Of a stretch of 64,000 nucleotides of DNA, positions 136 through 56,903 are shown in pieces (position 1 is the stretch's first letter; each line of letters begins with the position of its first letter). The notes beneath the pieces were generated by a model, which was given only the letters and a program-made list of their open reading frames with translations, did not search any database and was not told where the DNA came from. The DNA comes from Escherichia phage vB_EcoM-Ro157lw. The position numbers and the translations under genes are program-made. Where the stretch lies: sequence record MH051335.1. The stretch is one strand, 5' to 3'.

Positions 136-359
136 AACCAGCCAGCAGCGGCTAAGTCATTGATTTGCATAACACGCGGCGAAAGGGATGGATTTCTTTT
201 ATACGTATCAAACAGTACACCAAGCACCACGGTCCGCTATTCATTAAGCATTGTGATTTATGTACGTTTACAGCCAATTTGAACATCAATCTGCACTTGA
301 ATATAATGTTCAATCATTGTATAATTCACACTATTAATTTGCACTATGGGATTTGCACT

Positions 360-9068: not shown

Positions 9069-9149
9069 ATTACCTCCGGTTTTGAGTTAATATGATTATA
9101 ATGCAGAATTTCAGAAAGGCAAACTTTTTGTGAATTTAAATTAAAAAAA

Positions 9150-11458: not shown

Positions 11459-11487
11459 TTGCTTACAAACACATGAATATTTATAAT
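11459..11487 (+). promoter_or_regulatory. sigma70-like promoter TTGCTT-N17-TATAAT upstream of portal
   Basis: Hexamers read directly. Confidence 0.4.
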
Positions 11488-15682: not shown

Positions 15683-15692
15683 AGAGGAAGTT

Positions 15693-15830
15693 ATGCAAAA
15701 GATTATTCAGTCACGTTACGTTAAAGTGCGAAATATTAATTGCAACTCTTTGCTTTCTTGGAAATGGGCTGTTTACGACTCGATGCTGATTGGCGTTTTA
15801 GTTGCTGGAGTGCTTTTTAATATTCACTGA
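15693..15830 (+). CDS. small hypothetical membrane peptide (45 aa); below ORF-track size cutoff
   Basis: ATG with AAGAGGA SD; hydrophobic C-terminus MLIGVLVAGVLF. Confidence 0.4.
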   Translation: MQKIIQSRYVKVRNINCNSLLSWKWAVYDSMLIGVLVAGVLFNIH

Positions 15831-15865
15831 ATCGCCTGGCAATGGATTGCCGCAGGATTTTACGC

Positions 15866-16136
15866 GTATAATGACGTATCATCCGTATCAAGTAAGTAGT
15901 TGTTTTCAAAAGAATCTTACGGATGATACGGATGATACGCGTTGCCGCGATAATTTATAGGAATTCAAATAAATTAATTTAAAATTATATATCTAATTTA
16001 ATTTTATTTTTTTATAAACTCTTATATATGAAAAGTATCCGTATCATCCGTATCATCCGTAGCACACCAGTGATAGCGCGGCTTATACACCGATACGGAT
16101 AAAAATACGCCTCATTTTATCCGTATCATCCGTATC
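15866..16136. repeat. iteron-like region: GTATCATCCG at 15876, 16041, 16050, 16123; inverted tandem CGGATGATAC at 15920 and 15929; ~90-bp AT-rich tract at 15951-16040
   Basis: Direct reading; coordinates anchored to ORF-track boundaries. Confidence 0.85.
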
Positions 16137-16194
16137 ACACTAATTAAGGCGCGGCTATATCGGTTGTTATACATATTCAAACCATAATTATTGT

Positions 16195-16223
16195 TTGCCT
16201 AAGTTTTTTTCATTAGATATAAT
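16195..16223 (+). promoter_or_regulatory. sigma70-like promoter TTGCCT-N17-TATAAT upstream of the scaffold/capsid genes
   Basis: Hexamers read directly, just after the iteron region. Confidence 0.4.
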
Positions 16224-16246
16224 ACACAATACTTATTTGAGGGTGG

Positions 16247-18299: not shown

Positions 18300-19439
18300 A
18301 TGACTCGCATTAGCCAAACACACTCTCGCCTCCCAGCGAGCAAGGTGCGCCCTTTTGATATGCAATCCGTGACCGACGCGGCTGTTTCCCAGCTTGCGCG
18401 TATCGGTATTGTGTTTGATTCCGCGATTGTGCGTGATCAGATTGAGCACTTAAACCGTGCAGGCGCTTTCCGCGTAGGTGACGCCGCATTTACTGCGCCG
18501 CAGACCACGCCATCAATCCCGACCCCGCTGCAGTTCCTGCAACAGTGGCTGCCTGGCTTCGTCAAAATCATGACCGCTGCCCGTAAAATTGACGAGCTGG
18601 TTGGTATTGACACCGTTGGTCAGTGGGAAGATGCAGAAATCGTTCAGGGCATCGTTGAACCAGCTGGCACCGCAGTTGAATATGGTGATTTCACCTCTAT
18701 TCCTCTGGCAAGCTGGAACGTGAACTTTGAACGCCGTTCCATCGTTCGCGGTGAAATGGGCATGGCAGTCGGCATGCTGGAAGAAGGCCGCGCGTCTGCG
18801 ATGCGTCTGAACTCTGCAGAGACCAAGCGCCAGCAGGCTGCTGTATCTCTGGAAATCATGCGTAACGCAATCGGCTTCTATGGTTGGTATAACGGGAACA
18901 ACCGCACGTTCGGCTTCCTGAATGATCCAAACCTGCCAGCGGCAATGACTTCAAACACCACTTCCGGCTGGGCTACTGCGACCTTCCAACAGGTGACTGC
19001 AGACATCCGTTTGATGGTTCGTCAAATCCGTGTCAACTCTCAGGACCAGATTGATCCAGAGAAGGTTGATATGACTCTGGCGCTGCCGACCAACTCTATT
19101 GATTGGCTGTCAAACACCACCGACTTCGGTATTTCTGTACGTGACTGGATCACCCAGACTTATCCGAAGATGAAGATCAAATCCGCACCGGAACTCAACG
19201 GCGCACTTGGCAGTGACCCGACTTTCCTGAACGTGGCATATCTGTACGCTGATCACATCGATTCCTCAATTGATGGCTCAAGCGATGATGGTTCCGTATT
19301 CAGTCAGCTGGTCCAGACTAAGTTTATGACTCTGGGCGTTGAGAAACGCGCTAAGAGCTACGTTGAAGACTACGCAAACGCAACAGCAGGCGTTCTGCTC
19401 AAGCGTCCTTTCGCAGTCGTCCGTATGACTGGTATCTAA
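18300..19439 (+). CDS. major capsid protein
   Basis: Position, size 379 aa, AGGTGA SD, strong hairpin downstream. Confidence 0.55.
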
Positions 19440-19464
19440 TTGCTGTGATTACACAGTAAAACAC

Positions 19465-19494
19465 ATGGGGCGTGGTCGAAAGGCTTCGCCCCAT
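19465..19494 (+). terminator. stem-loop after capsid gene (8-bp stem ATGGGGCG/CGCCCCAT)
   Basis: Inverted repeat 26 nt after stop; weak U-tract. Confidence 0.4.
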
Positions 19495-19554
19495 ATCAAT
19501 AGACCTCAAGGGCTGTAGGGGCTTATCTGAGGCTTATATAAATAGGACTACAAA

Positions 19555-21954: not shown

Positions 21955-23493
21955 GTGATCAGTCAATCTCGTTATATTAAAATTGTATCAGGGGTCGGAG
22001 CAGGCGCGGCTGTTGCAGTTCGCAAACTGTCGCTTCGCGTCATGACTTCTAATACAGTTCTGCCGCCGGGCATTGTAGCAGAATTTTCAACGGCTGATGC
22101 TGTTGGATCATATTTCGGTTATTCTTCCGAAGAATATAAGCGCGCAGCATTATATTTTGGATTCATCAGCAAGCAAATTAACTCGCCTGATTCAATCAGC
22201 TTCTCGCGTATTGTTTCAACTGCGATTCCAGCAATGGTAATCGGTGATACTGAGCCTAAAGTGCTTGCTACGTTTCAAGCATTCACTGGCGCTATTTTAA
22301 GCATCACTTATGATGGCACAGACTACCTGACTGACGCAATTAACCTTTCAGCGGCAACAAGTCTGGCGAATGTGGCTGAACTTCTGGAAACGGCAATCAA
22401 TACTAAATTTGCAGCAGAAGGTGGCACGTCGGTGCCTGCACTTGCTGATGCAGAAGTGTATTGGAACGCTAATACTCAGCAGTTCACGCTGGAAGCAGCG
22501 CCGTCGACCGCTGGCGCAGGCAACCTGTCTATCAACGTCACAGGCCAACCGACCGACCCGTCTCAAGCATTGGGTTGGACCACCACTGGCACCGTAACCG
22601 TTGCAGGCCAGGGCGTTTCAAGTCCGGTAGAAGCAATCGCAGCATCTGTGGAAATCTCCAACAACTTCGGCTCATTCCTTTTTGCTGGGGCTGACCGAAC
22701 TCTGGAAGAAATTACCGCTGTGGCAGCGTGGAATCATTCGCAGAATAATATGTACATGTATTTATTCTCGACTTCGTTCGCTAATATCGGGTCATACTAC
22801 ACCGCTCTGAAAGGGTACTCAGGCGTTGGCATGATGATTCGCGCCACTAACCTTGCAAACGATTACATCGACCAAGCGCCTGCTGAAATCCTCGCGGCGA
22901 CGAACTATAATACTGTGAATGCGACTCAAAACTACATGTATTATCAGTTTGATACTCGCAACGTGACTGTTTCAACTGACTCTCGCGCAGATACTGCTGA
23001 TCAAAATCGTGCTAACTACATCGGTGCAACTCAGCAGGCCGGACAAACCTTGGCATTCTTCCAGCGCGGCGTATTGATGGGCGGGTCTACCGCAGCAGTT
23101 GACATGAATACTTATGCCAACGAGATGTGGCTTAAATCTGCTATCACTTCTCAGCTGTTCAGCATGTTCTTGAATCTTGGTCGCGTGCCTGCAAACGAAG
23201 AAGGTAAAGCGACTGTACAAGCCATGATTCAAGTTGCTGTTGACAATGCGAAGGTTAACGGCACCATCTCTGTTGGCAAGGCGCTGACTGAGATTCAGAA
23301 ACAATACATCACGCAAACTTCCGGTGACAACACTGCTTGGCGGCAGGTTGAAACTATCGGTTACTGGCTGACTGTAGATTTTGATACTGAAACCACTTCC
23401 GATGGGCGCACCGAATACTATGCAACATACACGCTAATCTACTCTAAAGATGATGCTGTGCGTCGCGTTGAAGGTCGTGACGTCCTTATCTAA
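21955..23493 (+). CDS. tail sheath protein
   Basis: 512 aa, directly upstream of tube-like genes; GTG start with AAGAGGA SD. Confidence 0.5.
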   Translation: MISQSRYIKIVSGVGAGAAVAVRKLSLRVMTSNTVLPPGIVAEFSTADAVGSYFGYSSEEYKRAALYFGFISKQINSPDSISFSRIVSTAIPAMVIGDTEPKVLATFQAFTGAILSITYDGTDYLTDAINLSAATSLANVAELLETAINTKFAAEGGTSVPALADAEVYWNANTQQFTLEAAPSTAGAGNLSINVTGQPTDPSQALGWTTTGTVTVAGQGVSSPVEAIAASVEISNNFGSFLFAGADRTLEEITAVAAWNHSQNNMYMYLFSTSFANIGSYYTALKGYSGVGMMIRATNLANDYIDQAPAEILAATNYNTVNATQNYMYYQFDTRNVTVSTDSRADTADQNRANYIGATQQAGQTLAFFQRGVLMGGSTAAVDMNTYANEMWLKSAITSQLFSMFLNLGRVPANEEGKATVQAMIQVAVDNAKVNGTISVGKALTEIQKQYITQTSGDNTAWRQVETIGYWLTVDFDTETTSDGRTEYYATYTLIYSKDDAVRRVEGRDVLI

Positions 23494-23540
23494 ATAATTG
23501 CCGCCGTAACTGGCGGCCATCTCTCTGAGAGGAATCTGTA

Positions 23541-26970: not shown

Positions 26971-29151
26971 GTGTCTGACTCATTAGAAAAATTTGTTCTT
27001 CAATATACGGTGGACTTGAAAGAGTCCATCAATCGTCTTGAGCAATTGCAAGATAAGGTTGATCAGACAAATAAAAAGGCAAAGGCCGCTGGTAAGGACT
27101 TCACCGGAGCATTCAAAGATGTGTTTGGTGAGCTGAAGCCTCTCACAGCTGAACTGGGGTCCATTGACGGAATCCTTGCGCGGCTTACTTACCGCTTTGC
27201 CGCGCTCGTTCCTGTTGTCGCAGGATTGGCCGTCGTCGTCAAATCCATTGTTGATGTTCGAAAAGAATATGAAGCGCAAAGGAAGCTGGGATTTGAAGCA
27301 GGTCTTTCACCAATTGGCGTGGAGCAATTACAGCGACAATTGAATGAAAGTTCAGGTGGCATTCTTGGTGCGCAGGGGTCAAGGGATTTGATCAGCAAAG
27401 CTTCTAATCTCGCATTCAACGCATACACCAACCCAGATGTGATGAACAAGGACAACTTGTTACTGAACAAGATGGGCACTAGTCCTTTCAACAGTAACGG
27501 CGGCATCAAAGACACAAACCAGCTTCTTGATGAAATTGGCACAAAGCTGAGAAGTGTGAATGAGCAAACCGCTCGTGCTATTGGTGCTCTGGCAGGTTTT
27601 ACCGCCGATGAAGTCCGTGCGCTTCGTGAGCGAAATCAATCAGTCAAAGAAAGCACCCGTATAAGCGACGAAGAAACCGCGAAGCTGCAAAGACAGCAGG
27701 CCGCTCTTGAAACGATACGAAACAGCATGGGCCAAATTCAAGAAGACTGGCGACGCATTGAACTGGTAATCGGTGAGAACGTGATGCCTGCATTCTCGAC
27801 GCTTGTCAGCAAAACCGCCGATACAGTCGAAGGATTCCAGATGATGTTCCAAAGAATGTCTGATGGATGGTCCGAATTTGTCGACAATTTCATTGCTGAC
27901 TTGAAGCACCCGTTTGATAAACAGGCGGCTGTCAACGAGCGCCACGAGCGTGCCGTTGACAGATGGATCACTCAGATGGCTGACGGCGATGTGAAACGCC
28001 AGAGGAATCAGGAGCAAAACGCGGCTGAACAACGTTCTGCGCAAGCACTTTTCACTCGCGATATAAACCTGTTTTCAAGCGCCGTTTCAACCTTTGCTGG
28101 TGTTATTGATGAGCGACAAGCGTGGGCTGCATGGGCTGGTGAGATAGGACGAAGCGCAGGCCAATCCGCAATGCCTGGCACGCCAGCACTAAGCACTGGT
28201 GCGACCGTAGGCAACAACTTGGGGTCAGGAAATCCGACTGCATATGACTCAATCTATGAGGAAGCCTCCAAGCGTTATGGAATCCCTGTTGCGATGATGA
28301 AGGCCGTCACAGAAGTCGAATCTGGATTCAACCCTAATGCCGTAAGCGGAGCAGGCGCGACCGGACTGATGCAAATAATGCCTTCCAACTTCAAGGGACT
28401 TGGTATCACAGACGGTAATGACCCAAGACAAAACATTATGGGCGGCGCTCAACTTCTCAAGGAATATTTAACTGCTGCCAATGGCGATTGGAATCTTGCA
28501 CTGACTATGTATCACGGCGGATATGACCGCAGCGGATGGGGAAAGAACACCCGTGCATACCCTGGCAAGGTGATGGCCGCTCTCGAACGACAGGCGAATG
28601 GAGAATACGCCACGGGAGCGCCGCAAGGTGCACCAGTTACTCCAGTGCTTAGCGGTAGCGGAGTAGAAGCGCCAAAAGGCAGCTACGCTCCAGTACAGGG
28701 CCAATCCCGCCAAACGGTGCAATACAGACAGTTGCAAGAAGCAATTGCAGGATACCTAAACGTGCCAGTTGAGCAGCTGATGCAAGGACAAGTCAACAAA
28801 GGTGATATTGACTTTGCTCAAACTTACCTTAAACTTGGAACGCAAAGGGATTATATTAAAAACATGCAGCTGGCTTCAACTCCAGGTGTAAGGCCGAACA
28901 TTCAGGCCGAAGCCATGAAGAATGCTCGTCTCGCGGCATTCCAGCTTGAAGCATTCCAGAAATACGGCGGCGACCTTTCCGCGAATAGTCGACCTGGTGG
29001 GCGTGATATTACTATGGGTCAGAAAAACGTTGTCATCAACGTCAACGGCGCTCAAGACCCAAGAAGCACGGCGATTGAGACTAAGCGTGTGCTTGAACAA
29101 GATGATATCAACGACATAAACAACCTTACTGCTACACCTTTGAAGTGGTGA
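26971..29151 (+). CDS. tail tape measure protein with C-terminal lytic transglycosylase domain
   Basis: Transglycosylase motifs AMMKAVTEVESGFNPNAVSGAGATGLMQIMPS; coiled-coil N-terminal half; GTG start with AAGGGG SD. Confidence 0.65.
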   Translation: MSDSLEKFVLQYTVDLKESINRLEQLQDKVDQTNKKAKAAGKDFTGAFKDVFGELKPLTAELGSIDGILARLTYRFAALVPVVAGLAVVVKSIVDVRKEYEAQRKLGFEAGLSPIGVEQLQRQLNESSGGILGAQGSRDLISKASNLAFNAYTNPDVMNKDNLLLNKMGTSPFNSNGGIKDTNQLLDEIGTKLRSVNEQTARAIGALAGFTADEVRALRERNQSVKESTRISDEETAKLQRQQAALETIRNSMGQIQEDWRRIELVIGENVMPAFSTLVSKTADTVEGFQMMFQRMSDGWSEFVDNFIADLKHPFDKQAAVNERHERAVDRWITQMADGDVKRQRNQEQNAAEQRSAQALFTRDINLFSSAVSTFAGVIDERQAWAAWAGEIGRSAGQSAMPGTPALSTGATVGNNLGSGNPTAYDSIYEEASKRYGIPVAMMKAVTEVESGFNPNAVSGAGATGLMQIMPSNFKGLGITDGNDPRQNIMGGAQLLKEYLTAANGDWNLALTMYHGGYDRSGWGKNTRAYPGKVMAALERQANGEYATGAPQGAPVTPVLSGSGVEAPKGSYAPVQGQSRQTVQYRQLQEAIAGYLNVPVEQLMQGQVNKGDIDFAQTYLKLGTQRDYIKNMQLASTPGVRPNIQAEAMKNARLAAFQLEAFQKYGGDLSANSRPGGRDITMGQKNVVINVNGAQDPRSTAIETKRVLEQDDINDINNLTATPLKW

Positions 29152-29155
29152 TAAT

Positions 29156-30028
29156 TTGAAAAAGAGAATCCTTAAGGTCACCTTATCTATGCCGGATGGC
29201 ACAAGCCAAGTTCTTGATGAAGGATTGATGCTCAGATGCCGAATCAAAAAGGCAGCACTTTCCGTTCAGAATAAGGCCACGATTGAAGTCGCAGGATTAA
29301 CAGGGTACTTGAGAGAGTACCTGCTTTCCAACTTCACGGCATTCAACAAACGTCTGCGTGATCAAGGTCAGTTGGCGGCGAACTACGTTAATGTGACTAT
29401 TGAAGCTGGATACAGAGAAGGGAGCGTAATCAGCAGCAACTTGGTATACAAGGGACAGGTGACTACGGTGGAGATAACAGCGCCGCCGCCGAATATCGTC
29501 ATCAGAATCACGTGTTATACAAACCAAATAAACAGAACGAAGTTCATAACTCAAGCCGCGCCATCCAACCCGACTTTCAAAGAGTTTGTGGAATGGTCTG
29601 CAAAGCAAATGGACATTGATACTGTTATTTGCGACACGTCGATTAACAATCAGCGCCTTGTAAACCCAGGAAGAACGACATATGTTGCTGCTGCGCTGCT
29701 GCTTGAGATCCAGAACTATCAACGCAACTCCATCGCGGCATACATTGATGACGATACGTTAATTGTTAAGGATAAAGACAAAATTCTAAATCCAGACCAG
29801 ATTACGGTCATTGAGGAATTTGTCGGAATACCGATGTGGAACGAGTGGGGTGCAGACTTCACTTGTATGTATAACGCAGATTTGAAGCTTGCACAAGGTG
29901 TTAAATTCAAATCAGTCTTAAACCCAAGCTTGAACGACACCACATTTGTCATCATGCAACTTGAATATGATTTAGCGAGTCGTGATGACATATTTACGGT
30001 GACGGGCGGCGTTGCACCATCGGCATAA
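29156..30028 (+). CDS. baseplate/distal tail protein
   Basis: Position after tape measure; TTG start (alternative ATG at 29189). Confidence 0.45.
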   Translation: MKKRILKVTLSMPDGTSQVLDEGLMLRCRIKKAALSVQNKATIEVAGLTGYLREYLLSNFTAFNKRLRDQGQLAANYVNVTIEAGYREGSVISSNLVYKGQVTTVEITAPPPNIVIRITCYTNQINRTKFITQAAPSNPTFKEFVEWSAKQMDIDTVICDTSINNQRLVNPGRTTYVAAALLLEIQNYQRNSIAAYIDDDTLIVKDKDKILNPDQITVIEEFVGIPMWNEWGADFTCMYNADLKLAQGVKFKSVLNPSLNDTTFVIMQLEYDLASRDDIFTVTGGVAPSA

Positions 30029-30030
30029 AT

Positions 30031-30552
30031 ATGAGAAAGAATAAAATAATCGACTTGTTTGGCGTAACTTATGAAATTCATCAATTCAGCGCAATAGATG
30101 CATTTGAAATGGTCGATGACATAAGTATATTAACCCCACTTGAATTATTGAGTGAATGTTATGTAATAAAATACGACGGGTCCAAAGTAAGGCTTAATTC
30201 TGAAAAAGTAATTAGTGAAGAAGTGAAAAGTATTCCTAATCACTTGCCGCCTAATCTTGTGTTGAAAGTGTTAATGGAAGCCGTTAAAAAGCACAACTTT
30301 GGATTCCTTAGCGATTGGAAAAGCACCAAAATTCCAAATAGATTCTTGGCGGATGCACCGACAGTAGAGCCTAATTATCTTGAGCCAATGGTTGCAAGTC
30401 TAATAAATAACGGCCTTGCATCTTTAAAGGAGTTGGAAGAATACTATTCACTGCGTGATGCATTTGCTATGTTTGATGGTTTAATAGCAAAATCACTTAA
30501 TGAAGCCTACTCAAACGAAGCTGCCATTAAAGAATCAAAGTCAAATCGCTAA
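30031..30552 (+). CDS. hypothetical baseplate protein
   Basis: ORF track. Confidence 0.5.
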   Translation: MRKNKIIDLFGVTYEIHQFSAIDAFEMVDDISILTPLELLSECYVIKYDGSKVRLNSEKVISEEVKSIPNHLPPNLVLKVLMEAVKKHNFGFLSDWKSTKIPNRFLADAPTVEPNYLEPMVASLINNGLASLKELEEYYSLRDAFAMFDGLIAKSLNEAYSNEAAIKESKSNR

Positions 30553-30556
30553 AATA

Positions 30557-30611
30557 TTGCTTATAGACTCCTTATAGATTATAATTTGTTGATCAGATAT
30601 AAGGAGTCTAT
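30557..30611 (+). promoter_or_regulatory. promoter TTGCTT-N17-TATAAT (30557-30585) overlapped by a 13-bp perfect inverted repeat ATAGACTCCTTAT / ATAAGGAGTCTAT (30563-30575, 30599-30611) whose right arm contains the SD and first A of the ATG
   Basis: Direct reading. Confidence 0.5.
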
Positions 30612-31338
30612 GATGGCAGAAAAGTTAACCCAACTTACAAGCCCCAACCAAACTGACAAATCAAGTATGTTTGCCGCGCTTCAGGGAATGCTGGACCGTG
30701 GCAAGTATACCACTGATGGCATGATTCCTGCGCAAGTAATATCTTATGACCGCAAGAAAAATTTAGCAGTCATAAAACCTGTTATTCATTTCGTAAGTCT
30801 TGATGATAAGCCAGTGGAGCGTCAACCTTTGGTGTCAATTCCGGTACTGGCAATCGGCGGCGGCGGATTCGTGATCAACTTCCCTTTGAAGGAAGGCGAC
30901 TTGGGCTGGATATTCGCTGGCGACCGCGAGTTGTCGACATTCCTTGAAGAATTGAAGCCGACCGCGCCTACCAATGGCCGTGTAAAAACTTTCGCTGATG
31001 GACTGTTCATACCGGATGTATTCCGAAAATACACCATAAGCGGAGAGGATGCAGGGTCAATGGTAATTCAATCCCTCAGCGGCGCTGTGAGAATTGCACT
31101 AAGCGATGACTCAATAAACATAACTGCGTCTTCTGGAGTAAACGTCAAGACCCCGATAACCACTATCGATCAACAACTGATAGTAAATGGAAAGGCAACA
31201 TTCAATGGTGGGATAGAAGGCAAAGAAGGAACGACGGCAACGCTTCCGACTGGCACAACGGTCGGCGGCATTGATGTATCCACTCACGGGCATATCGGTA
31301 ACGGGCCTGGAAACAGAACTGGGAATATGATAGAATGA
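30610..31338 (+). CDS. baseplate central spike protein (gpV/gp5-like)
   Basis: Spike-like size and a C-terminal His-rich tip (VSTHGHIG); ATG at 30610 with AAGGAG SD. Confidence 0.45.
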   Translation: MMAEKLTQLTSPNQTDKSSMFAALQGMLDRGKYTTDGMIPAQVISYDRKKNLAVIKPVIHFVSLDDKPVERQPLVSIPVLAIGGGGFVINFPLKEGDLGWIFAGDRELSTFLEELKPTAPTNGRVKTFADGLFIPDVFRKYTISGEDAGSMVIQSLSGAVRIALSDDSINITASSGVNVKTPITTIDQQLIVNGKATFNGGIEGKEGTTATLPTGTTVGGIDVSTHGHIGNGPGNRTGNMIE

Positions 31339-32606
31339 GTGCACAATATTCTTACATAGTAAGCACTGGTGTGATCACCATTGACACGGCAGATTTATTG
31401 GCTGATGTTCAAGGTGAATGGATTGAGTCTTTAGGGGTCGGGCTTGATGTTGATGCTTCGACGCCGCAAGGCACGCTAATCGCAACAGAGACGTTGGCAA
31501 GAACTTCAGTGATGAAGAATAATGCCGAATTGGGAAGTCTCATCAACCCTAACTACTCATATGGAGTATACCTTGATGCAATCGCGGCGCTTCTTGGCAT
31601 CGAGCGCACAAAGAATGTAAGCACAATGTTGAAAGGTGTGACTGCAGAGGGAACGCCGCTGCTGGAAATTCCTGCTGGAAGTCTTCTTACTGATTCAAAT
31701 GGTACATACTGGTATGTGCTGGAAGACGTTCAAATCACTTCGACTGGCAAGACAAGCAACATGACTCTTGCGTCAAAAGATTATGGCTCATTTACCGTTG
31801 CGCCTGATGAAGAGTTTACAGTGGTGCAAGGTTATGACGTCATCGGATGGTCAAGAACGTATTCAACATCAGCAACGACGACCGTGCCAGGCACCCAATA
31901 CATGGGCGACGGAGCATTAAAGGCCGCTCGCGTTAAGCGTCTTTACCAGCAGGGCATCGCATCACTTGGTGCCATCCGCGCTCGCGCCATGTCTGTCGAC
32001 GGTGTAGAGTCTGTGATGGTCGTGGAGAATGACACAGGAGCGCCTGGAACGGTGCGCGGCATTACCTTCTCAACGCCTAACGGTGTTTGGGTATGCGCAA
32101 GCGGAACATTTGACAAGCAAGTGTTTGCGGAGACGATATTCAAGGCGAAGATGGGTGGTCAACCTTGGGACTTTGGCGCTACTAATCAAGGAAATCCGGT
32201 AAACTCGCCTGATGGAATCGAAGTGGTCGATGCAGAATCACAGTTGTCTTATTTCGTCAAATTTAACACTGCAGTGATATATGATTTGTATGTTGACATA
32301 ACCGTTTCAAGAGGAACGGCGACCGCTGATGCAGAGTCCATTATTGCCGCTGTACTAAATTACGGAAATGGCAATTTTAACGGTGAGCAGGGATATACAG
32401 TAGGCCAATCTCAATCTTCTTTTGAAATTGCTTCGGCAGTATCCTGCGAATATCCAGGACTTTATATCAAAGATTGCAAAATTGCAGCAGTTAAAAGCGG
32501 ACAGGCAGCGCCAACTTATCCTTCCGATTATGGCAGCGAGTGGATTGCCAATCCTTGGGACAAGGCCAATACTATGCGCGGCTTCATCAACGTTAAATTT
32601 GTGTGA
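31335..32606 (+). CDS. baseplate wedge protein (gpJ-like by position)
   Basis: ORF track; ATGA overlap with upstream gene. Confidence 0.4.
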   Translation: MSAQYSYIVSTGVITIDTADLLADVQGEWIESLGVGLDVDASTPQGTLIATETLARTSVMKNNAELGSLINPNYSYGVYLDAIAALLGIERTKNVSTMLKGVTAEGTPLLEIPAGSLLTDSNGTYWYVLEDVQITSTGKTSNMTLASKDYGSFTVAPDEEFTVVQGYDVIGWSRTYSTSATTTVPGTQYMGDGALKAARVKRLYQQGIASLGAIRARAMSVDGVESVMVVENDTGAPGTVRGITFSTPNGVWVCASGTFDKQVFAETIFKAKMGGQPWDFGATNQGNPVNSPDGIEVVDAESQLSYFVKFNTAVIYDLYVDITVSRGTATADAESIIAAVLNYGNGNFNGEQGYTVGQSQSSFEIASAVSCEYPGLYIKDCKIAAVKSGQAAPTYPSDYGSEWIANPWDKANTMRGFINVKFV

Positions 32607-32612
32607 GGAACT

Positions 32613-35351
32613 ATGCAAAAGTTTGACACAAACCTGTTGCAAAACCTTAAGTGGATGCAGAACAACGCGCCAAACATCACATCTTTGGTTCAGAAGAAGA
32701 GTGATTGGTATGAGCGATATCAAGATCAGTTTTGGATTGACTGGTACAAAAACATATTCAACATTGATACTTGTGATGCAATGGGCATCTATATTTGGTG
32801 CGACATCCTATGCATACCAAGAGACTTTGTTGACTTAAGTAACTATGAGCACAACTGGGCATTCGGGCCAACACGCGACAACTTTGAAGGGCCGGACAAT
32901 ATCGGCGGCAACTTCTTTGGTGCTGGCGGAAAGGTTGTGAAAAACATTGAAGAAGCGCGCATCCTTCTGAAGCTTCGTTATCTGACGCTTACAAGTGATG
33001 GCCGCATCGAAAGCATCAACCGTATGCTTAAGTGGATTTTTAACCGTGGGGAAGCTTGGGATTACTCTTCATCCAGATACGCATATGTGACAGACAATAC
33101 TCAAGGCGCGGTGTCTTCTTCTGAATCAACAAACGGTTCATTCCTTCTGTATGACTGGCAGGGGTCGACTGAGATTCAGCACGATTATAAACAAATTCTT
33201 TTGAGTCACGGCAACAACGCAGGACTTACCATAAGTGGGGTGGCAGGGACTGTTTCGCGAATGGCACACCCAGACTGGTATTCATGGGGTAATGGCTCCG
33301 GCGCTGGTATTGTCGGCGGTGATACGCGCCAATATGGCGGCCCTGACTATTACGGCCAACTGTGTGGTGATTACCCAGGAGAGGCCATAGAGAATTTCGC
33401 CAACGCAGTACGGGTCATCAAGACCGCTTCCAGCGGCGAGCCTGTGTATTCTTTGGCCAGTAATCCAAGCGCCCAATCTATTGCGCTTCCTTCTCAGGCT
33501 GGTGTCAATGTTTGCTATAGCTTCTACATAAAAGTGCTTTCTGAAAACGTGGCTTCTGTTTCCGTAACAGAGAACAGTGATGCATCGAGTAATGGAAAAC
33601 TTTTCGACCCAGTGACTGGGCAGTTCAACCTTGACTCTTCTTTGAGTTATTTCATCACAGGCAAGTTCGACGGTGTGAGAAGGGAATCAAACCGTGGTGG
33701 CATCAAGGCAATCGGCGGCGATTGGTACAGAATCTGGATTGTAGAACAAACTGCGAACGCGACAGCTGGGGTAAACACAAGCTTTTCAATTGAGTTGAAA
33801 GCAACTGCCGCTGGATCAACTCAGACTCGCGAATTGCCTGAAGGGTCTGATGCGCTTCTTTTTGGATACTCAATTTGTGTTTGCGACCCTGTTCAGAATC
33901 CTAATGGGCCTGAGCCTTATTTCTATGGGACTCAAAATCCGCCTGCAGATGGCACAGCAATTTTGTCTGTTACGGCAGGAACGCTCAACAACATTTCTTG
34001 CGCAAACGGTCCGTTGACGACAAGAAATGGCGTGGTGGGCGAGTCATTTATGCAGCCTGGGTCATCACTTGCGTACTCTGGTTCAATCGGCGGCTACCCG
34101 TACCCAGGAAACGCCACTCTAATCGCAGAAACAGACGGAATCAGACGCTCATGGAACGTTAGCCGATTGGACGGAGTACCGCCGCCGCCGACCGCTGACT
34201 ATTACATGGAATATGTCATCGGGCCTTATTTCGCCAACAACTTGTCTGATAACTTTAAGACGCTAGTTGGCGACAGGAATGAAGGATTCTTGCCAGCCAA
34301 TGCCGGAATACGTTGGCAGCTTTACCAAGAAGTCGCAGACTTATCCGATATTGATTTGACTGTCAGCAACATAACAGACACGCGAGTAGGATTCGAAACG
34401 GAAGGTGTCGCATGGATTAACACTGACGGGATCATCAGAGTTGGCGGCATAAACGAGTGGCCGTTGAACAACTTTAATGGTGTTATAAGACAGCTTGAAT
34501 CTCTGAAAGGTGTGAACCAAGTCATCGACGGCGCACTTGTCAACGACTATTCAATCTCAAAAGCTTCAAGAGATGACTTTGGTCGTGAAATTCCACGCGC
34601 GGCAATCACTAACTACTGGCGATACACACAGCCCAATGACGGCACATCTTTTGGCAATATCGTCAAGGACGGAGCTAACACGGTAACGGCGACGCCAATC
34701 AGCGGTGTGCCCAACCAGTTCCCATCATTCAAGCTTTCCGCTACAATAGGGACTGTGCCAGCGTCCGGTTATGCACGCGCTGTACTTGCTACTAAATACA
34801 CTGGCACCTTGACTGGTCCTTTGTCATTTATCGCAATAGTTAAAAACAACACGGTAAACGGTCAAAAACTTTTCGTAACCGTACCGGATGGTATGGGCGG
34901 CTATATCCCTAAATTCTACAGCATAGGCGCAGGTGATTTGCAACGTATCGAAATTGACCTTGCTGCTGAGATTGTTGCAGGAACGACTTGGGATGGTTCG
35001 ACAGGTGGAATCAGCATTGGTTTGATATCAGGGAAAGACTTGCCGACCGAAGTTGGTACGACTCTTGAACTTGATATTTTAAGCTTGATGCTTGTTTCTG
35101 GTAATACGATGAATGCGCTTGCGATTTCAACAAGCGAAGACTTTACAAAGAAAACTGCAACTTCTATATACATCAAAAACCCAGGGTCACTGGCGACTGG
35201 AGTTCAATTGATAGCTTCGAATGGGGATGTTGTAGCGACAGTAAACTTTCCAAGAAGTGCTGCTGGCGGTTATGTTTCAAGCATGAATATAACTGACTTA
35301 ACTGGTGATTGGGCATCAACCCTTTTATCAAAAATTAAATACATCGTGTAG
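32613..35351 (+). CDS. large baseplate/tail fiber protein
   Basis: 912 aa; GAGGA SD; position in tail module. Confidence 0.5.
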   Translation: MQKFDTNLLQNLKWMQNNAPNITSLVQKKSDWYERYQDQFWIDWYKNIFNIDTCDAMGIYIWCDILCIPRDFVDLSNYEHNWAFGPTRDNFEGPDNIGGNFFGAGGKVVKNIEEARILLKLRYLTLTSDGRIESINRMLKWIFNRGEAWDYSSSRYAYVTDNTQGAVSSSESTNGSFLLYDWQGSTEIQHDYKQILLSHGNNAGLTISGVAGTVSRMAHPDWYSWGNGSGAGIVGGDTRQYGGPDYYGQLCGDYPGEAIENFANAVRVIKTASSGEPVYSLASNPSAQSIALPSQAGVNVCYSFYIKVLSENVASVSVTENSDASSNGKLFDPVTGQFNLDSSLSYFITGKFDGVRRESNRGGIKAIGGDWYRIWIVEQTANATAGVNTSFSIELKATAAGSTQTRELPEGSDALLFGYSICVCDPVQNPNGPEPYFYGTQNPPADGTAILSVTAGTLNNISCANGPLTTRNGVVGESFMQPGSSLAYSGSIGGYPYPGNATLIAETDGIRRSWNVSRLDGVPPPPTADYYMEYVIGPYFANNLSDNFKTLVGDRNEGFLPANAGIRWQLYQEVADLSDIDLTVSNITDTRVGFETEGVAWINTDGIIRVGGINEWPLNNFNGVIRQLESLKGVNQVIDGALVNDYSISKASRDDFGREIPRAAITNYWRYTQPNDGTSFGNIVKDGANTVTATPISGVPNQFPSFKLSATIGTVPASGYARAVLATKYTGTLTGPLSFIAIVKNNTVNGQKLFVTVPDGMGGYIPKFYSIGAGDLQRIEIDLAAEIVAGTTWDGSTGGISIGLISGKDLPTEVGTTLELDILSLMLVSGNTMNALAISTSEDFTKKTATSIYIKNPGSLATGVQLIASNGDVVATVNFPRSAAGGYVSSMNITDLTGDWASTLLSKIKYIV

Positions 35352-37805: not shown

Positions 37806-37825
37806 AAAGGCCCATATGGGCCTTT
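37806..37825. terminator. bidirectional hairpin terminator (AAAGGCCC/GGGCCTTT, loop ATAT) between convergent genes
   Basis: Perfect 8-bp stem flanked by A-run and T-run. Confidence 0.6.
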
Positions 37826-49724: not shown

Positions 49725-49758
49725 CGTTTCGATGAGATAAATATAACTCATCGAAACG
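49725..49758 (-). promoter_or_regulatory. 12-bp perfect inverted repeat CGTTTCGATGAG / CTCATCGAAACG with 10-bp spacer in the SDR gene leader
   Basis: Direct reading; 13-mer TTCGTTTCGATGA also at 42666-42678. Confidence 0.5.
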
Positions 49759-51928: not shown

Positions 51929-51993
51929 TTTCGTTTCCTCTATGAGTTCTGCTTCAATGATTAAAGTATACGCCCATTGAAGCAGAAAGCAAA

Positions 51994-56875: not shown

Positions 56876-56903
56876 TTGCTTTTATTTTTCTAGCAACTAT
56901 AAT
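56876..56903 (+). promoter_or_regulatory. sigma70-like promoter TTGCTT-N16-TATAAT
   Basis: Hexamers read directly. Confidence 0.4.

What the first reader, a model, noticed from the sequence alone, without database searches (positions are those of the whole stretch)
30557..30611. Promoter overlapped by a 13-bp perfect inverted repeat that includes the ribosome-binding site of the baseplate spike gene
ATAGACTCCTTAT (30563-30575) and ATAAGGAGTCTAT (30599-30611) are exact reverse complements. The left arm lies in the spacer of a TTGCTT-N17-TATAAT promoter; the right arm covers the SD and start codon of gene 30610..31338. This could be an operator for a dimeric regulator or, in read-through transcripts, an SD-sequestering hairpin.
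Basis: seen in the sequence. Interest (0 to 1): 0.4.

Follow-up and report, generated by a model that had tools for sequence, protein, structure and literature searches.

The report
Promoter nested in a ribosome-site-masking hairpin
Just before a phage baseplate-spike gene, a conserved promoter sits inside a stem-loop that would hide the gene's ribosome-binding site on long read-through RNAs but not on the promoter's own RNA. This trick is known from phage T4 and appears not to have been described in this phage group.

Summary
The window is a Wifcevirus-type E. coli myovirus. It has a perfect 14-nt inverted repeat (30563-30576 / 30598-30611, 21-nt loop), expected 0.01-0.04 times per window. 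The 5' arm fills the spacer of TTGCTT-N17-TATAAT. The 3' arm covers the SD AAGGAG and reaches the start codon, most likely ATG 30613.

The promoter belongs to a class recurring in this genome (6 hits vs 0.2 expected). The spacer is almost invariant in 28 relatives.

In 26 related lineages that have a spacer before the spike gene, an exact TATAAT lies 20-35 nt before the start in 15 (0.5 expected). Fifteen have an unusually stable fold (z below -2), which in 14 of the 15 covers the ribosome-binding site or start codon. Arm sequences differ between lineages but stay complementary: 9 double compensatory changes in two clades, G.U-only changes in a third. The sense strand folds better than the antisense (p=0.004). 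Arm spacing varies from 21 to 37 bp.

This favours an mRNA hairpin over a protein operator. Predicted SD accessibility is 0.001 in read-through RNA and about 0.8 from the internal promoter. The logic matches T4 genes e, soc, 49 and I-TevI, but with a sigma-70-type promoter inside a late structural operon. No transcript data exist, so the mechanism is inferred. It is a new member of a known kind, of moderate interest.

The parts
30031..30552 (+). Upstream gene (173 aa, PHROG 4774, function unknown, weak tail-assembly-chaperone similarity). Its stop codon TAA is at 30550-30552.
   Evidence: Its Eco4M-7 orthologue gp59 is not in the virion proteome list, whereas gp60 is.
30521..30527 (+). CTGCCAT, the optional outer helix partner of ATGGCAG (30613-30619). 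It would also bury the second ATG when no ribosome is on the upstream gene.
   Evidence: I3; read-through fold. It lies inside the 199-nt invariant stretch.
30557..30562 (+). -35-like hexamer TTGCTT.
   Evidence: TTGCNT-N16-18-TATAAT: 6 hits vs 0.2 expected. A TT-initial hexamer lies exactly 17 nt from TATAAT in 9 enterobacterial lineages.
30563..30576 (+). 5' arm (anti-SD strand) ATAGACTCCTTATA, occupying the promoter spacer. It extends to 30561 as RNA.
30577..30597 (+). 21-nt loop holding the -10 box and the predicted transcription start. Two of the three substitutions seen in this spacer among 28 relatives fall here (30591, 30596).
30580..30585 (+). -10 box TATAAT.
   Evidence: An exact TATAAT lies 20-35 nt before the spike start in 15 of 26 lineages vs 0.51 expected.
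30591..30593 (+). Predicted transcription start, 6-8 nt after the -10 box. This is inferred and not mapped.
   Evidence: Inference from sigma-70 promoter geometry; used.
30598..30611 (+). 3' arm TATAAGGAGTCTAT containing the SD AAGGAG (30601-30606) and the first ATG (30610). It extends to 30613 as RNA.
30613..31338 (+). Baseplate central spike gene (241 aa from the second ATG; Gp138_N domain). Its stop overlaps the start of the baseplate-J gene (31335).

Best explanation
The 57-nt spacer holds a host-type (sigma-70-like) internal promoter, TTGCTT-N17-TATAAT, nested inside an mRNA stem-loop.

**Read-through RNA.** Transcripts that enter from the upstream structural genes carry both arms. They fold into a 14-16 bp hairpin of about -23 kcal/mol. 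This buries the Shine-Dalgarno sequence and start region of the spike gene, so ribosomes cannot initiate there.

**Promoter RNA.** Transcripts that start at the internal promoter begin in the loop, at about 30591-30593. They lack the 5' arm, so their ribosome-binding site is open and the spike is translated. The downstream baseplate genes are probably translated with it, because the next gene overlaps the spike stop codon.

**Consequence.** The element would work as a translational insulator. Expression of the spike module would be set by its own promoter and not by read-through.

**Shown here:** the repeat, its rarity, the conservation of the -10 box, the recurrence of the hairpin with compensatory changes, and the predicted accessibility switch.

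**Inferred:** that the promoter fires, where it starts, that read-through transcripts exist, and that translation is blocked on them.
For: **In the window**
- A perfect 14-nt repeat is expected 0.01-0.04 times per window.
- It is by far the strongest stem over any ribosome-binding site here: 16 bp with 15 Watson-Crick pairs, against 10 bp for the next best.
- TTGCNT-N16-18-TATAAT occurs 6 times vs 0.2 expected, and 5 of the 6 are intergenic and face a gene.
- No convincing intrinsic terminator lies on the + strand between 22 kb and the element. The strong terminator is at 37806-37825.

**Within Wifcevirus**
- The longest invariant stretch in 5.7 kb of six genomes is 199 nt (30482-30680), centred on the spacer, against a mean of 8.2 variable sites per 60 nt.
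- Twenty-two of 28 records are identical over 111 nt.
- The only substitutions in the spacer are two in the loop and one at the loop end of the stem.

**Across relatives**
- In 26 lineages with a 34-76 nt spacer, an exact TATAAT lies 20-35 nt before the start in 15, vs 0.51 expected.
- The fold z-score is below -2 in 15 of 26.
- In hairpin lineages the 5' arm lies at or before the -10 box, and the predicted start falls in the loop or the 3' arm.

**Base-pairing is what is selected**
- Kyle vs PA1: 4 pairs changed on both sides, 92.9% of cells paired vs 32-57% when the partners are slid.
- PCSE1, L112 and L007: 5 pairs changed on both sides, 90.5% paired.
- Hera vs MyoSmar: all 3 substitutions within the structure keep pairing through G.U.

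**RNA of the sense strand**
- The sense strand is more stable than the antisense in 13 of 15 lineages, Wilcoxon p=0.004.
- Internal non-Watson-Crick positions are T.G three times and A.C never.

**Accessibility switch**
- In the window, SD P(unpaired) is 0.001 in read-through RNA and 0.74-0.81 from the predicted start.
- Over 14 hairpin lineages the mean rises from 0.20 to 0.54, in 14 of 14, p=1e-4. No-hairpin lineages give 0.44 vs 0.50.

**Precedent**
- T4 e, soc, 49 and I-TevI use exactly this logic (PMC3014915, section 29).
Against: - No transcript mapping, reporter or ribosome data exist for this phage group. Promoter activity, transcription start and read-through are all inferred.
- The upstream genes are themselves late structural genes. 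The T4 rationale of silencing an early read-through of a late gene does not transfer directly, and the biological pay-off is unclear.
- The hairpin is not universal. Eleven of 26 spacer-bearing lineages lack it. L099 and L111, close relatives of the hairpin-bearing L029 and L053, keep the TATAAT but lack the 5'-arm complementarity. It is therefore dispensable.
- The spacer is short. A hairpin placed around the -10 box will tend to reach the ribosome-binding site for geometric reasons alone.
- The lineages are phylogenetically related, so the counts and p-values overstate independence.
- Each covariation count rests on only 2-3 sequences.
- The -35 hexamer is weak (3 of 6).
Confidence: 0.6

Rival explanations
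1. The sense-strand RNA hairpin is real, but its main job is not to block initiation. It could be an RNase III or other processing site that separates the upstream and downstream cistrons. It could be a 3'-end stabiliser for the upstream message. It could also be a pause or attenuation signal.
For: - In the window the 16-bp stem plus a 5-bp upper helix gives about 21 bp with a small bulge, close to the size of an RNase III substrate.
- Intercistronic hairpins follow other genes in the same block, at 19470-19500 and 23500-23517.
- The covariation evidence supports any RNA-level role equally.
Against: - Most relatives have stems of only 8-13 bp, too short for RNase III.
- No U-tract follows the stem, and the terminator scan did not list it.
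- A stabiliser or processing site does not require the 3' arm to be the SD and start, or the -10 box to lie between the arms, yet that is the recurring layout.
Confidence: 0.2
2. The inverted repeat is a DNA operator. A dimeric phage or host regulator binds the two arms that flank the -10 box and start site, and represses or activates the promoter.
For: - A perfect palindrome straddles the -10 box and +1, a classic operator position.
- The spacer is almost invariant in 28 Wifcevirus genomes.
- Palindromic half-sites would also co-vary.
Against: - The arms are unrelated in sequence between lineages and differ in length, from 8 to 18 bp.
- The centre-to-centre distance ranges from 21 to 37 bp, and is 25 vs 32 bp within the single genus Kylevirus. 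That changes the helical phase.
- Several helices are held by G.U pairs, which are mismatches in DNA.
- The sense strand folds better than the antisense.
- The arm motif occurs nowhere else in the genome.
- The constant feature of the 3' arm is that it is the ribosome-binding site.
Confidence: 0.08
3. There is no regulatory function. The repeat is a by-product, for example of AT-rich palindromic sequence around ATTATAAT, of recombination, or of a DNA-level cruciform. Conservation within Wifcevirus would then reflect recent common ancestry or recombinational homogenisation.
For: - The hairpin is missing from 11 of 26 spacer-bearing lineages, including close relatives of hairpin-bearing ones.
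- In Myosmarvirus part of the stem is the near-palindromic TATTATAATA.
Against: - The chance expectation is 0.01-0.04 per window.
- The layout recurs with different sequences in at least 14 lineages with z from -2.4 to -6.9.
- There are nine double compensatory changes.
- The spacer is the least variable 199 nt of a 5.7-kb region that otherwise varies at 8 sites per 60 nt.
Confidence: 0.07

Closest known systems
Phage T4 genes e (lysozyme), soc, 49 and I-TevI: a late promoter nested in a hairpin that occludes the ribosome-binding site (PMC3014915, section 29)
   Same: - An upstream sequence pairs with the SD and/or AUG on long read-through transcripts.
- A promoter lies in the DNA that encodes the 5' strand, so its own transcript lacks that strand and is translated.
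- The structure is conserved in related phages although the sequences differ.
   Different: - The promoter here is sigma-70-like (TTGCTT-N17-TATAAT), not the T4 late TATAAATA that depends on gp55 and gp33.
- The phage group is unrelated to T4 (Wifcevirus and its PB1-related relatives).
- The regulated gene is a baseplate spike inside a co-oriented late structural operon, not a late gene embedded in early transcription.
- No experimental support exists here.
IS10/Tn10 'fold-back inhibition' of transposase translation on externally initiated transcripts (from my own knowledge: Davis, Simons and Kleckner 1985)
   Same: - Read-through RNA from outside carries a sequence complementary to the ribosome-binding site and is translationally silent.
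- The element's own promoter starts inside the repeat and yields translatable RNA.
- The effect is insulation from external transcription.
   Different: - That system is an insertion sequence protecting itself from fortuitous activation. Here the element is an internal boundary in a phage morphogenesis operon.
- There is no sequence relationship.
Aeromonas phage Aeh1 mobE hairpin that sequesters the ribosome-binding site (Gibb and Edgell 2009, listed in PMC3014915)
   Same: [quoted passage not shown]
   Different: - That gene is a homing endonuclease embedded in another gene.
- I did not read that paper, so its details were not compared.
PeSL promoter-terminator cassettes of T4-like phages (PMC2839356, PMC4122927)
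   Same: A short intergenic cassette that combines a sigma-70-like promoter with a stem-loop.
   Different: - PeSLs are multi-copy conserved motifs in hyperplastic early regions.
- Their stem-loop acts as a terminator and the cassettes mediate recombination.
- This element is single-copy, its stem encloses the promoter, it has no U-tract, and its 3' arm is the ribosome-binding site.
Palindromic operators of dimeric repressors overlapping a promoter
   Same: An inverted repeat straddling the -10 box and +1.
   Different: Arm sequence, length and spacing are not conserved among relatives, and pairing tolerates G.U.

Membership tests
Nested-promoter / ribosome-binding-site-occluding hairpin (T4 e, soc, 49, I-TevI design; 'fold-back inhibition') | The SD and/or start codon is base-paired with an upstream segment in the long transcript. 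| tested here: met
   A 14-16 bp helix joins 30561-30576 and 30598-30613. SD P(unpaired) is 0.001 in read-through contexts.
Nested-promoter / ribosome-binding-site-occluding hairpin (T4 e, soc, 49, I-TevI design; 'fold-back inhibition') | A promoter is placed so that its transcript starts after the 5' strand of the helix. | tested here: met
   This holds at the level of sequence prediction only. The -10 box is at 30580-30585, so the start is expected at about 30591-30593, in the loop. The layout is the same in all hairpin-bearing relatives. The -10 box is conserved, and the promoter class recurs in the genome.
Nested-promoter / ribosome-binding-site-occluding hairpin (T4 e, soc, 49, I-TevI design; 'fold-back inhibition') | The transcription start is mapped inside the structure. 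| not testable with these tools
   No 5'-end or RNA-seq data for Wifcevirus were found.
Nested-promoter / ribosome-binding-site-occluding hairpin (T4 e, soc, 49, I-TevI design; 'fold-back inhibition') | Upstream-initiated transcripts read through into the gene. | tested here: inconclusive
   The genes are co-oriented and tightly packed from 16247 onwards. No convincing intrinsic terminator lies on the + strand between 22 kb and 30.5 kb. There are no RNA data.
Nested-promoter / ribosome-binding-site-occluding hairpin (T4 e, soc, 49, I-TevI design; 'fold-back inhibition') | Translation from the long transcript is reduced, and is relieved by disrupting the 5' strand. | not testable with these tools
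   This needs reporter fusions or toeprinting. Only predicted accessibilities are available.
Nested-promoter / ribosome-binding-site-occluding hairpin (T4 e, soc, 49, I-TevI design; 'fold-back inhibition') | The structure is maintained by compensatory change in relatives. | tested here: met
   There are 4 double changes in Kyle vs PA1, 5 in PCSE1/L112/L007, and 3 G.U-type single changes in Hera vs MyoSmar.
T4-type late promoter elements specifically | A TATAAATA late promoter recognised by gp55/gp33-modified polymerase. | tested here: not met
   The box is TATAAT with a -35-like hexamer at 17 nt. The phage is a PB1-related myovirus, not T4-like.
Palindromic operator of a dimeric DNA-binding regulator | Half-site sequence and spacing are conserved among phages sharing the system. 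| tested here: not met
   The arms are unrelated between lineages. Centre-to-centre distance ranges from 21 to 37 bp, and is 25 vs 32 bp within Kylevirus.
Palindromic operator of a dimeric DNA-binding regulator | A cognate regulator protein binds the site. | not tested
   No candidate regulator was sought. Binding cannot be tested with these tools.
Intrinsic (Rho-independent) terminator | A G+C-rich stem with a short loop, followed by a U-tract. | tested here: not met
   It is not listed by the terminator scan. The loop is 21 nt, the stem is A+T-rich, and the following sequence is GATGGCAGAAAAG.
PeSL promoter-terminator cassettes | A multi-copy conserved cassette dispersed through the genome. 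| tested here: not met
   The arm motif has no other copy with 2 mismatches or fewer in the window. See for the PeSL definition.
Any curated RNA family (Rfam 15) | A match to a covariance model. | tested here: not met
   There are no matches with E at most 1 in 30300-30900 on either strand.
RNase III processing site | About two helical turns of double-stranded RNA, and cleavage that depends on rnc. | tested here: inconclusive
   The window has 16+5 bp with a bulge, but relatives have only 8-13 bp. Cleavage cannot be tested here.

The most novel reading that the evidence does not exclude
A sizeable group of PB1-related myoviruses of enterobacteria and other proteobacteria (Wifcevirus, Kylevirus, Myosmarvirus, PCSE1-like phages and several uncultured lineages) has independently arrived at, and repeatedly re-tuned, the T4-style 'promoter inside a ribosome-site-masking hairpin'. 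Here it uses a host sigma-70-type promoter. Its role would be to split the late morphogenesis operon into two translationally insulated units, so that spike, wedge and fiber production is set only by the internal promoter. That would make this design a general, convergent solution for dosing or timing baseplate components, and not a T4 peculiarity.
Probability: 0.35. Interest if true: 0.55.

Novelty: new member of a known kind. Interest (0 to 1): 0.4.

Why it matters
If confirmed, the nested-promoter and occluding-hairpin logic is not a T4 curiosity tied to its special late promoters. It would be a convergent design that also works with ordinary host-type promoters and inside a late structural operon.

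It would give a concrete regulatory handle on Wifcevirus, a poorly studied group of fast-replicating E. coli O157 and Shigella phages now available in the BASEL collection. It also matters for engineering: inserting payloads, or refactoring the genome around the spike gene, would break the element.

The natural variants make the idea easy to test. Eco4M-7 has a shortened stem, and L099 and L111 lack the 5'-arm complementarity.

Tried and rejected
- **More copies of the arm.** I searched the window for further copies of the arm motif with up to 3 mismatches. Only chance-level hits turned up, so it is not a dispersed repeat or a multi-site operator.
- **Generic scans.** The generic promoter and terminator scan lists neither the promoter (the -35 hexamer matches only 3 of 6) nor any terminator at the site.
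- **Rfam.** A permissive scan of 30300-30900 gave nothing.
- **PB1-like phages and more distant relatives.** In the Pseudomonas PB1-like phages and most distant relatives the spike gene overlaps or abuts the upstream gene (gap of 8 nt or less). No comparable element exists there, so they are uninformative.
- **Translational coupling.** I considered melting of the stem by ribosomes terminating at 30552. The stop codon is 8-10 nt before the base of the stem, so at most the lowest few pairs could be opened. The stop-to-stem distance also varies from about 7 to 22 nt among lineages. I rejected this as the main mechanism.
- **Cruciform or supercoiling sensor.** I considered this but could not test it. 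The 21-nt loop and the G.U-dependent helices in relatives argue against a DNA structure.
- **A genome-wide habit.** I asked whether the phage uses occluding hairpins generally. It does not: the next best stem over a ribosome-binding site has 10 bp and sits mostly at doubtful internal ORF starts.
- **Transcript data.** Literature searches for Wifcevirus or Eco4M-7 transcript data found none. The ONT-cappable-seq study of the PB1-like phage 14-1 does not bear on the question, because that genus lacks the spacer.
- **Failed call.** One literature query failed on a term that was too short and was repeated.

Full report
**What is in the sequence**

The window is a Wifcevirus-type E. coli myovirus: 28 phage records match 29000-33000 at 90-99% identity. 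Between the stop codon of a 173-aa gene (30031-30552, PHROG 4774, function unknown) and the baseplate spike gene lies a 57-60 nt spacer.

The reported inverted repeat is there and is one base longer per arm than stated. The arms are ATAGACTCCTTATA (30563-30576) and TATAAGGAGTCTAT (30598-30611), perfectly complementary, with 21 nt between them. As RNA the helix extends to 16 bp through a U.G and a U-A pair.

Perfect repeats of at least 14 nt with a loop of at most 60 nt are expected 0.014 times (analytic) to 0.04 times (shuffles) per window, and two are present. The other one belongs to an unrelated repeat array near 15.9 kb.

TTGCTT (30557-30562), a 17-nt spacer and TATAAT (30580-30585) are as described. 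The -35 hexamer matches TTGACA at only 3 of 6 positions, which is why the generic scan missed it.

The 3' arm contains the SD AAGGAG (30601-30606) and the first of two ATGs (30610, 30613). The second has the better spacing, is the start used in every record I inspected that annotates this gene, and fits the N-termini of homologues. The gene therefore probably starts at 30613.

**Is the promoter credible?**

Two lines of evidence say yes.

First, TTGCNT-N16-18-TATAAT occurs six times in the window against 0.2 expected. Five of the six lie in intergenic DNA facing a gene: 9095-9122 (-), 11459-11487 (+), 16195-16223 (+, at the head of the structural gene block), 56876-56903 (+), and this one.

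Second, I collected phages and uncultured viral contigs whose spike protein is 35-58% identical. In 26 lineages that have a 34-76 nt spacer before the spike gene, an exact TATAAT lies 20-35 nt upstream of the start codon in 15, against 0.51 expected from shuffles. Most of the rest have 5-of-6 variants at the same place.

In the nine enterobacterial lineages a TT-initial hexamer sits exactly 17 nt upstream of that box. It is TTGCTT in the window; TTTACT in Kyle, PA1, Hera and MyoSmar; TTTATT in PCSE1 and L112; TTTATC in L007; and TTGTAT in L020. Lineages in which the spike gene overlaps the upstream gene, including the Pseudomonas PB1-like phages, have nothing comparable.

**Is the hairpin more than a coincidence?**

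Within Wifcevirus the spacer is the most conserved part of the region. Across six genomes that average 8.2 variable sites per 60 nt, the longest invariant stretch in 5.7 kb is 199 nt (30482-30680), centred on the spacer. Twenty-two of 28 records are identical over 111 nt. The only substitutions in the spacer are two in the loop (30591, 30596) and one at the loop-proximal end of the stem (30599, in Eco4M-7), which still leaves 12 perfect pairs.

Across the 26 spacer-bearing lineages, 15 have an unusually stable fold, with z from -2.4 to -6.9. [quoted passage not shown] The arm sequences are unrelated between lineages. Examples are TCTCTCCCGGTG/CACCGGGAGAGA in L007, ACCTCTTACAGTA/TACTGTAAGAGGT in Kyle, and AGCCATCCGT/ACGGATGGCT in L029.

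Where sequences are close enough to align, complementarity is kept by paired changes:
- Kyle vs PA1 (same genus): 4 pairs changed on both sides, 92.9% of cells paired, against 32-57% when the 3' partners are slid.
- PCSE1, L112 and L007: 5 pairs changed on both sides, 90.5% paired.
- Hera vs MyoSmar: all three substitutions within the structure (two in the main stem, one in the small upper helix) keep pairing through G.U.

Each of these counts rests on only two or three sequences, and the lineages are related. They are therefore indicative and not statistically rigorous.

**RNA or DNA?**

Four observations favour a structure in the sense-strand RNA over a protein-binding palindrome:
1. Helices tolerate G.U, which is a mismatch in duplex DNA. 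Internal non-Watson-Crick positions are T.G three times and A.C never.
2. The sense strand folds more stably than the antisense in 13 of 15 hairpin lineages (Wilcoxon p=0.004).
3. Arm length (8-18 bp) and centre-to-centre distance (21-37 bp) vary. The distance is 25 bp in Kyle and 32 bp in PA1, within one genus. This changes the helical phase that a dimeric protein would need.
4. The constant property of the 3' arm is that it is the ribosome-binding site, and the arm motif occurs nowhere else in the genome.

**How it most likely works**

The 5' arm occupies the promoter spacer, the one part of a promoter whose sequence is free to evolve. The expected start, 6-8 nt after the -10 box (30591-30593), lies in the loop.

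A transcript coming from upstream therefore contains both arms. The hairpin alone is -23.2 kcal/mol, and the SD has P(unpaired)=0.001. An outer helix, CTGCCAT (30521-30527) with ATGGCAG (30613-30619), can also bury the second ATG. A transcript from the internal promoter lacks the 5' arm, and its SD has P(unpaired)=0.74-0.81.

The same calculation across 14 hairpin lineages raises mean accessibility of the ribosome-binding site from 0.20 to 0.54 in 14 of 14 cases (p=1e-4). Lineages without the hairpin show 0.44 vs 0.50. In every hairpin lineage the predicted start lies in the loop or the 3' arm.

Read-through is plausible because the genes from 16247 onward are co-oriented and tightly packed. 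No convincing intrinsic terminator precedes the element on the + strand, and the strong terminator lies at 37806-37825.

The next gene (baseplate J, 31335) overlaps the spike stop codon. The block may therefore extend to the downstream module, making the element a translational insulator between the tube, tape-measure and hub genes and the spike, wedge and fiber genes. That last step is inference.

**What remains uncertain**

Nothing here was measured. No transcript start, RNA-seq or reporter data exist for this genus.

The biological pay-off is unclear, because the upstream genes are also late genes. The hairpin is also dispensable in evolution. Eleven of 26 spacer-bearing lineages lack it. 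L099 and L111 keep the TATAAT, but they lack the 5'-arm complementarity that is present in their close relatives L029 and L053.

An RNA-level role other than occlusion (processing, stabilisation of the upstream message, pausing) is the main rival. It is weakened by the short stems in most relatives, by the absence of a U-tract, and by the recurrent coincidence of the 3' arm with the ribosome-binding site.

**Comparison with what is known**

The logic is that of phage T4 genes e, soc, 49 and I-TevI. There the SD and/or AUG are sequestered in early read-through transcripts. A late promoter lies in the DNA that encodes the 5' strand, so late transcripts are translated. For gene e the effect is about 100-fold (PMC3014915, section 29). 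IS10 'fold-back inhibition' is another analogue, which I cite from my own knowledge only.

The differences are these:
- The promoter is sigma-70-like and not TATAAATA.
- The phage group is unrelated to T4; it is distantly related to Pbunavirus.
- The context is inside a late structural operon.

It is not a PeSL cassette, because those are multi-copy terminator-promoter units and this is single-copy. It is not an intrinsic terminator, and it matches no Rfam family.

**Verdict**

This is a new member of a known kind of regulatory design, apparently not described in this phage group. It is well supported by comparative evidence but unverified experimentally. Interest is 0.4.

Noticed in passing
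window 15857-16140 (within the 565-nt gap 15683-16246): A dense array of the 9-nt unit ATCCGTATC / GATACGGAT in both orientations, including a 22-nt perfect inverted repeat (15918-15939 / 16040-16061) and 16-nt direct repeats. It flanks a very A+T-rich core (about 15945-16030). It lies just upstream of the promoter-like TTGCCT-N17-TATAAT (16195-16223) and the first gene of the + strand structural block. It looks like an iteron or operator array, or a replication origin.
   Followed up: partly
window 9095-9122 (-), 11459-11487 (+), 16195-16223 (+), 56876-56903 (+); also 22149-22176 (-), inside a gene: A recurring promoter class TTGCYT-N16-17-TATAAT, with 6 hits against 0.2 expected. Five of the six are intergenic and face a gene, including the head of the structural module.
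   Followed up: partly
window 19440-19554: The intergenic region after gene 18300-19439 has a G+C-rich hairpin (CATGGGGCG...CGCCCCAT) without a U-tract. It is followed by TATAAATA, which is identical to the T4 late-promoter box, about 12 nt before ATG 19555.
   Followed up: no
window 49725-49758 and 51947-51987: Perfect 12-bp and 13-bp inverted repeats in short gaps between minus-strand genes. Each lies about 20 nt upstream of the next start codon. They may be intercistronic hairpins or terminators.
   Followed up: no
window 37806-37825: A strong bidirectional terminator-like hairpin, AAAGGCCCATATGGGCCTTT, with T-runs, at the end of the + strand structural block where it meets the minus-strand genes.
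   Followed up: no
L029 2365-2400; L099 940-975; L111 1100-1160: In L029 the TATAAT lies only 6 nt before the spike ATG, which suggests a leaderless mRNA, and a 10-bp stem covers the ATG. Its close relative L099, and L111 (a relative of L053), keep the TATAAT but lack the 5'-arm complementarity. These are natural arm-loss variants.
   Followed up: partly
window 279-325: Two overlapping strong promoter-like sites (TTGAAC-N17-TATAAT and TTGAAT-N17-TATAAT) are followed by three copies of TTTGCACTAT-like repeats.
   Followed up: no
window 30482-30680: The invariant stretch among six Wifcevirus genomes extends about 70 nt into each flanking coding region, further than the hairpin and promoter need. 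It includes the possible outer helix 30521-30527 / 30613-19 and a second imperfect inverted repeat, 30472-30489 / 30522-30539.
   Followed up: partly
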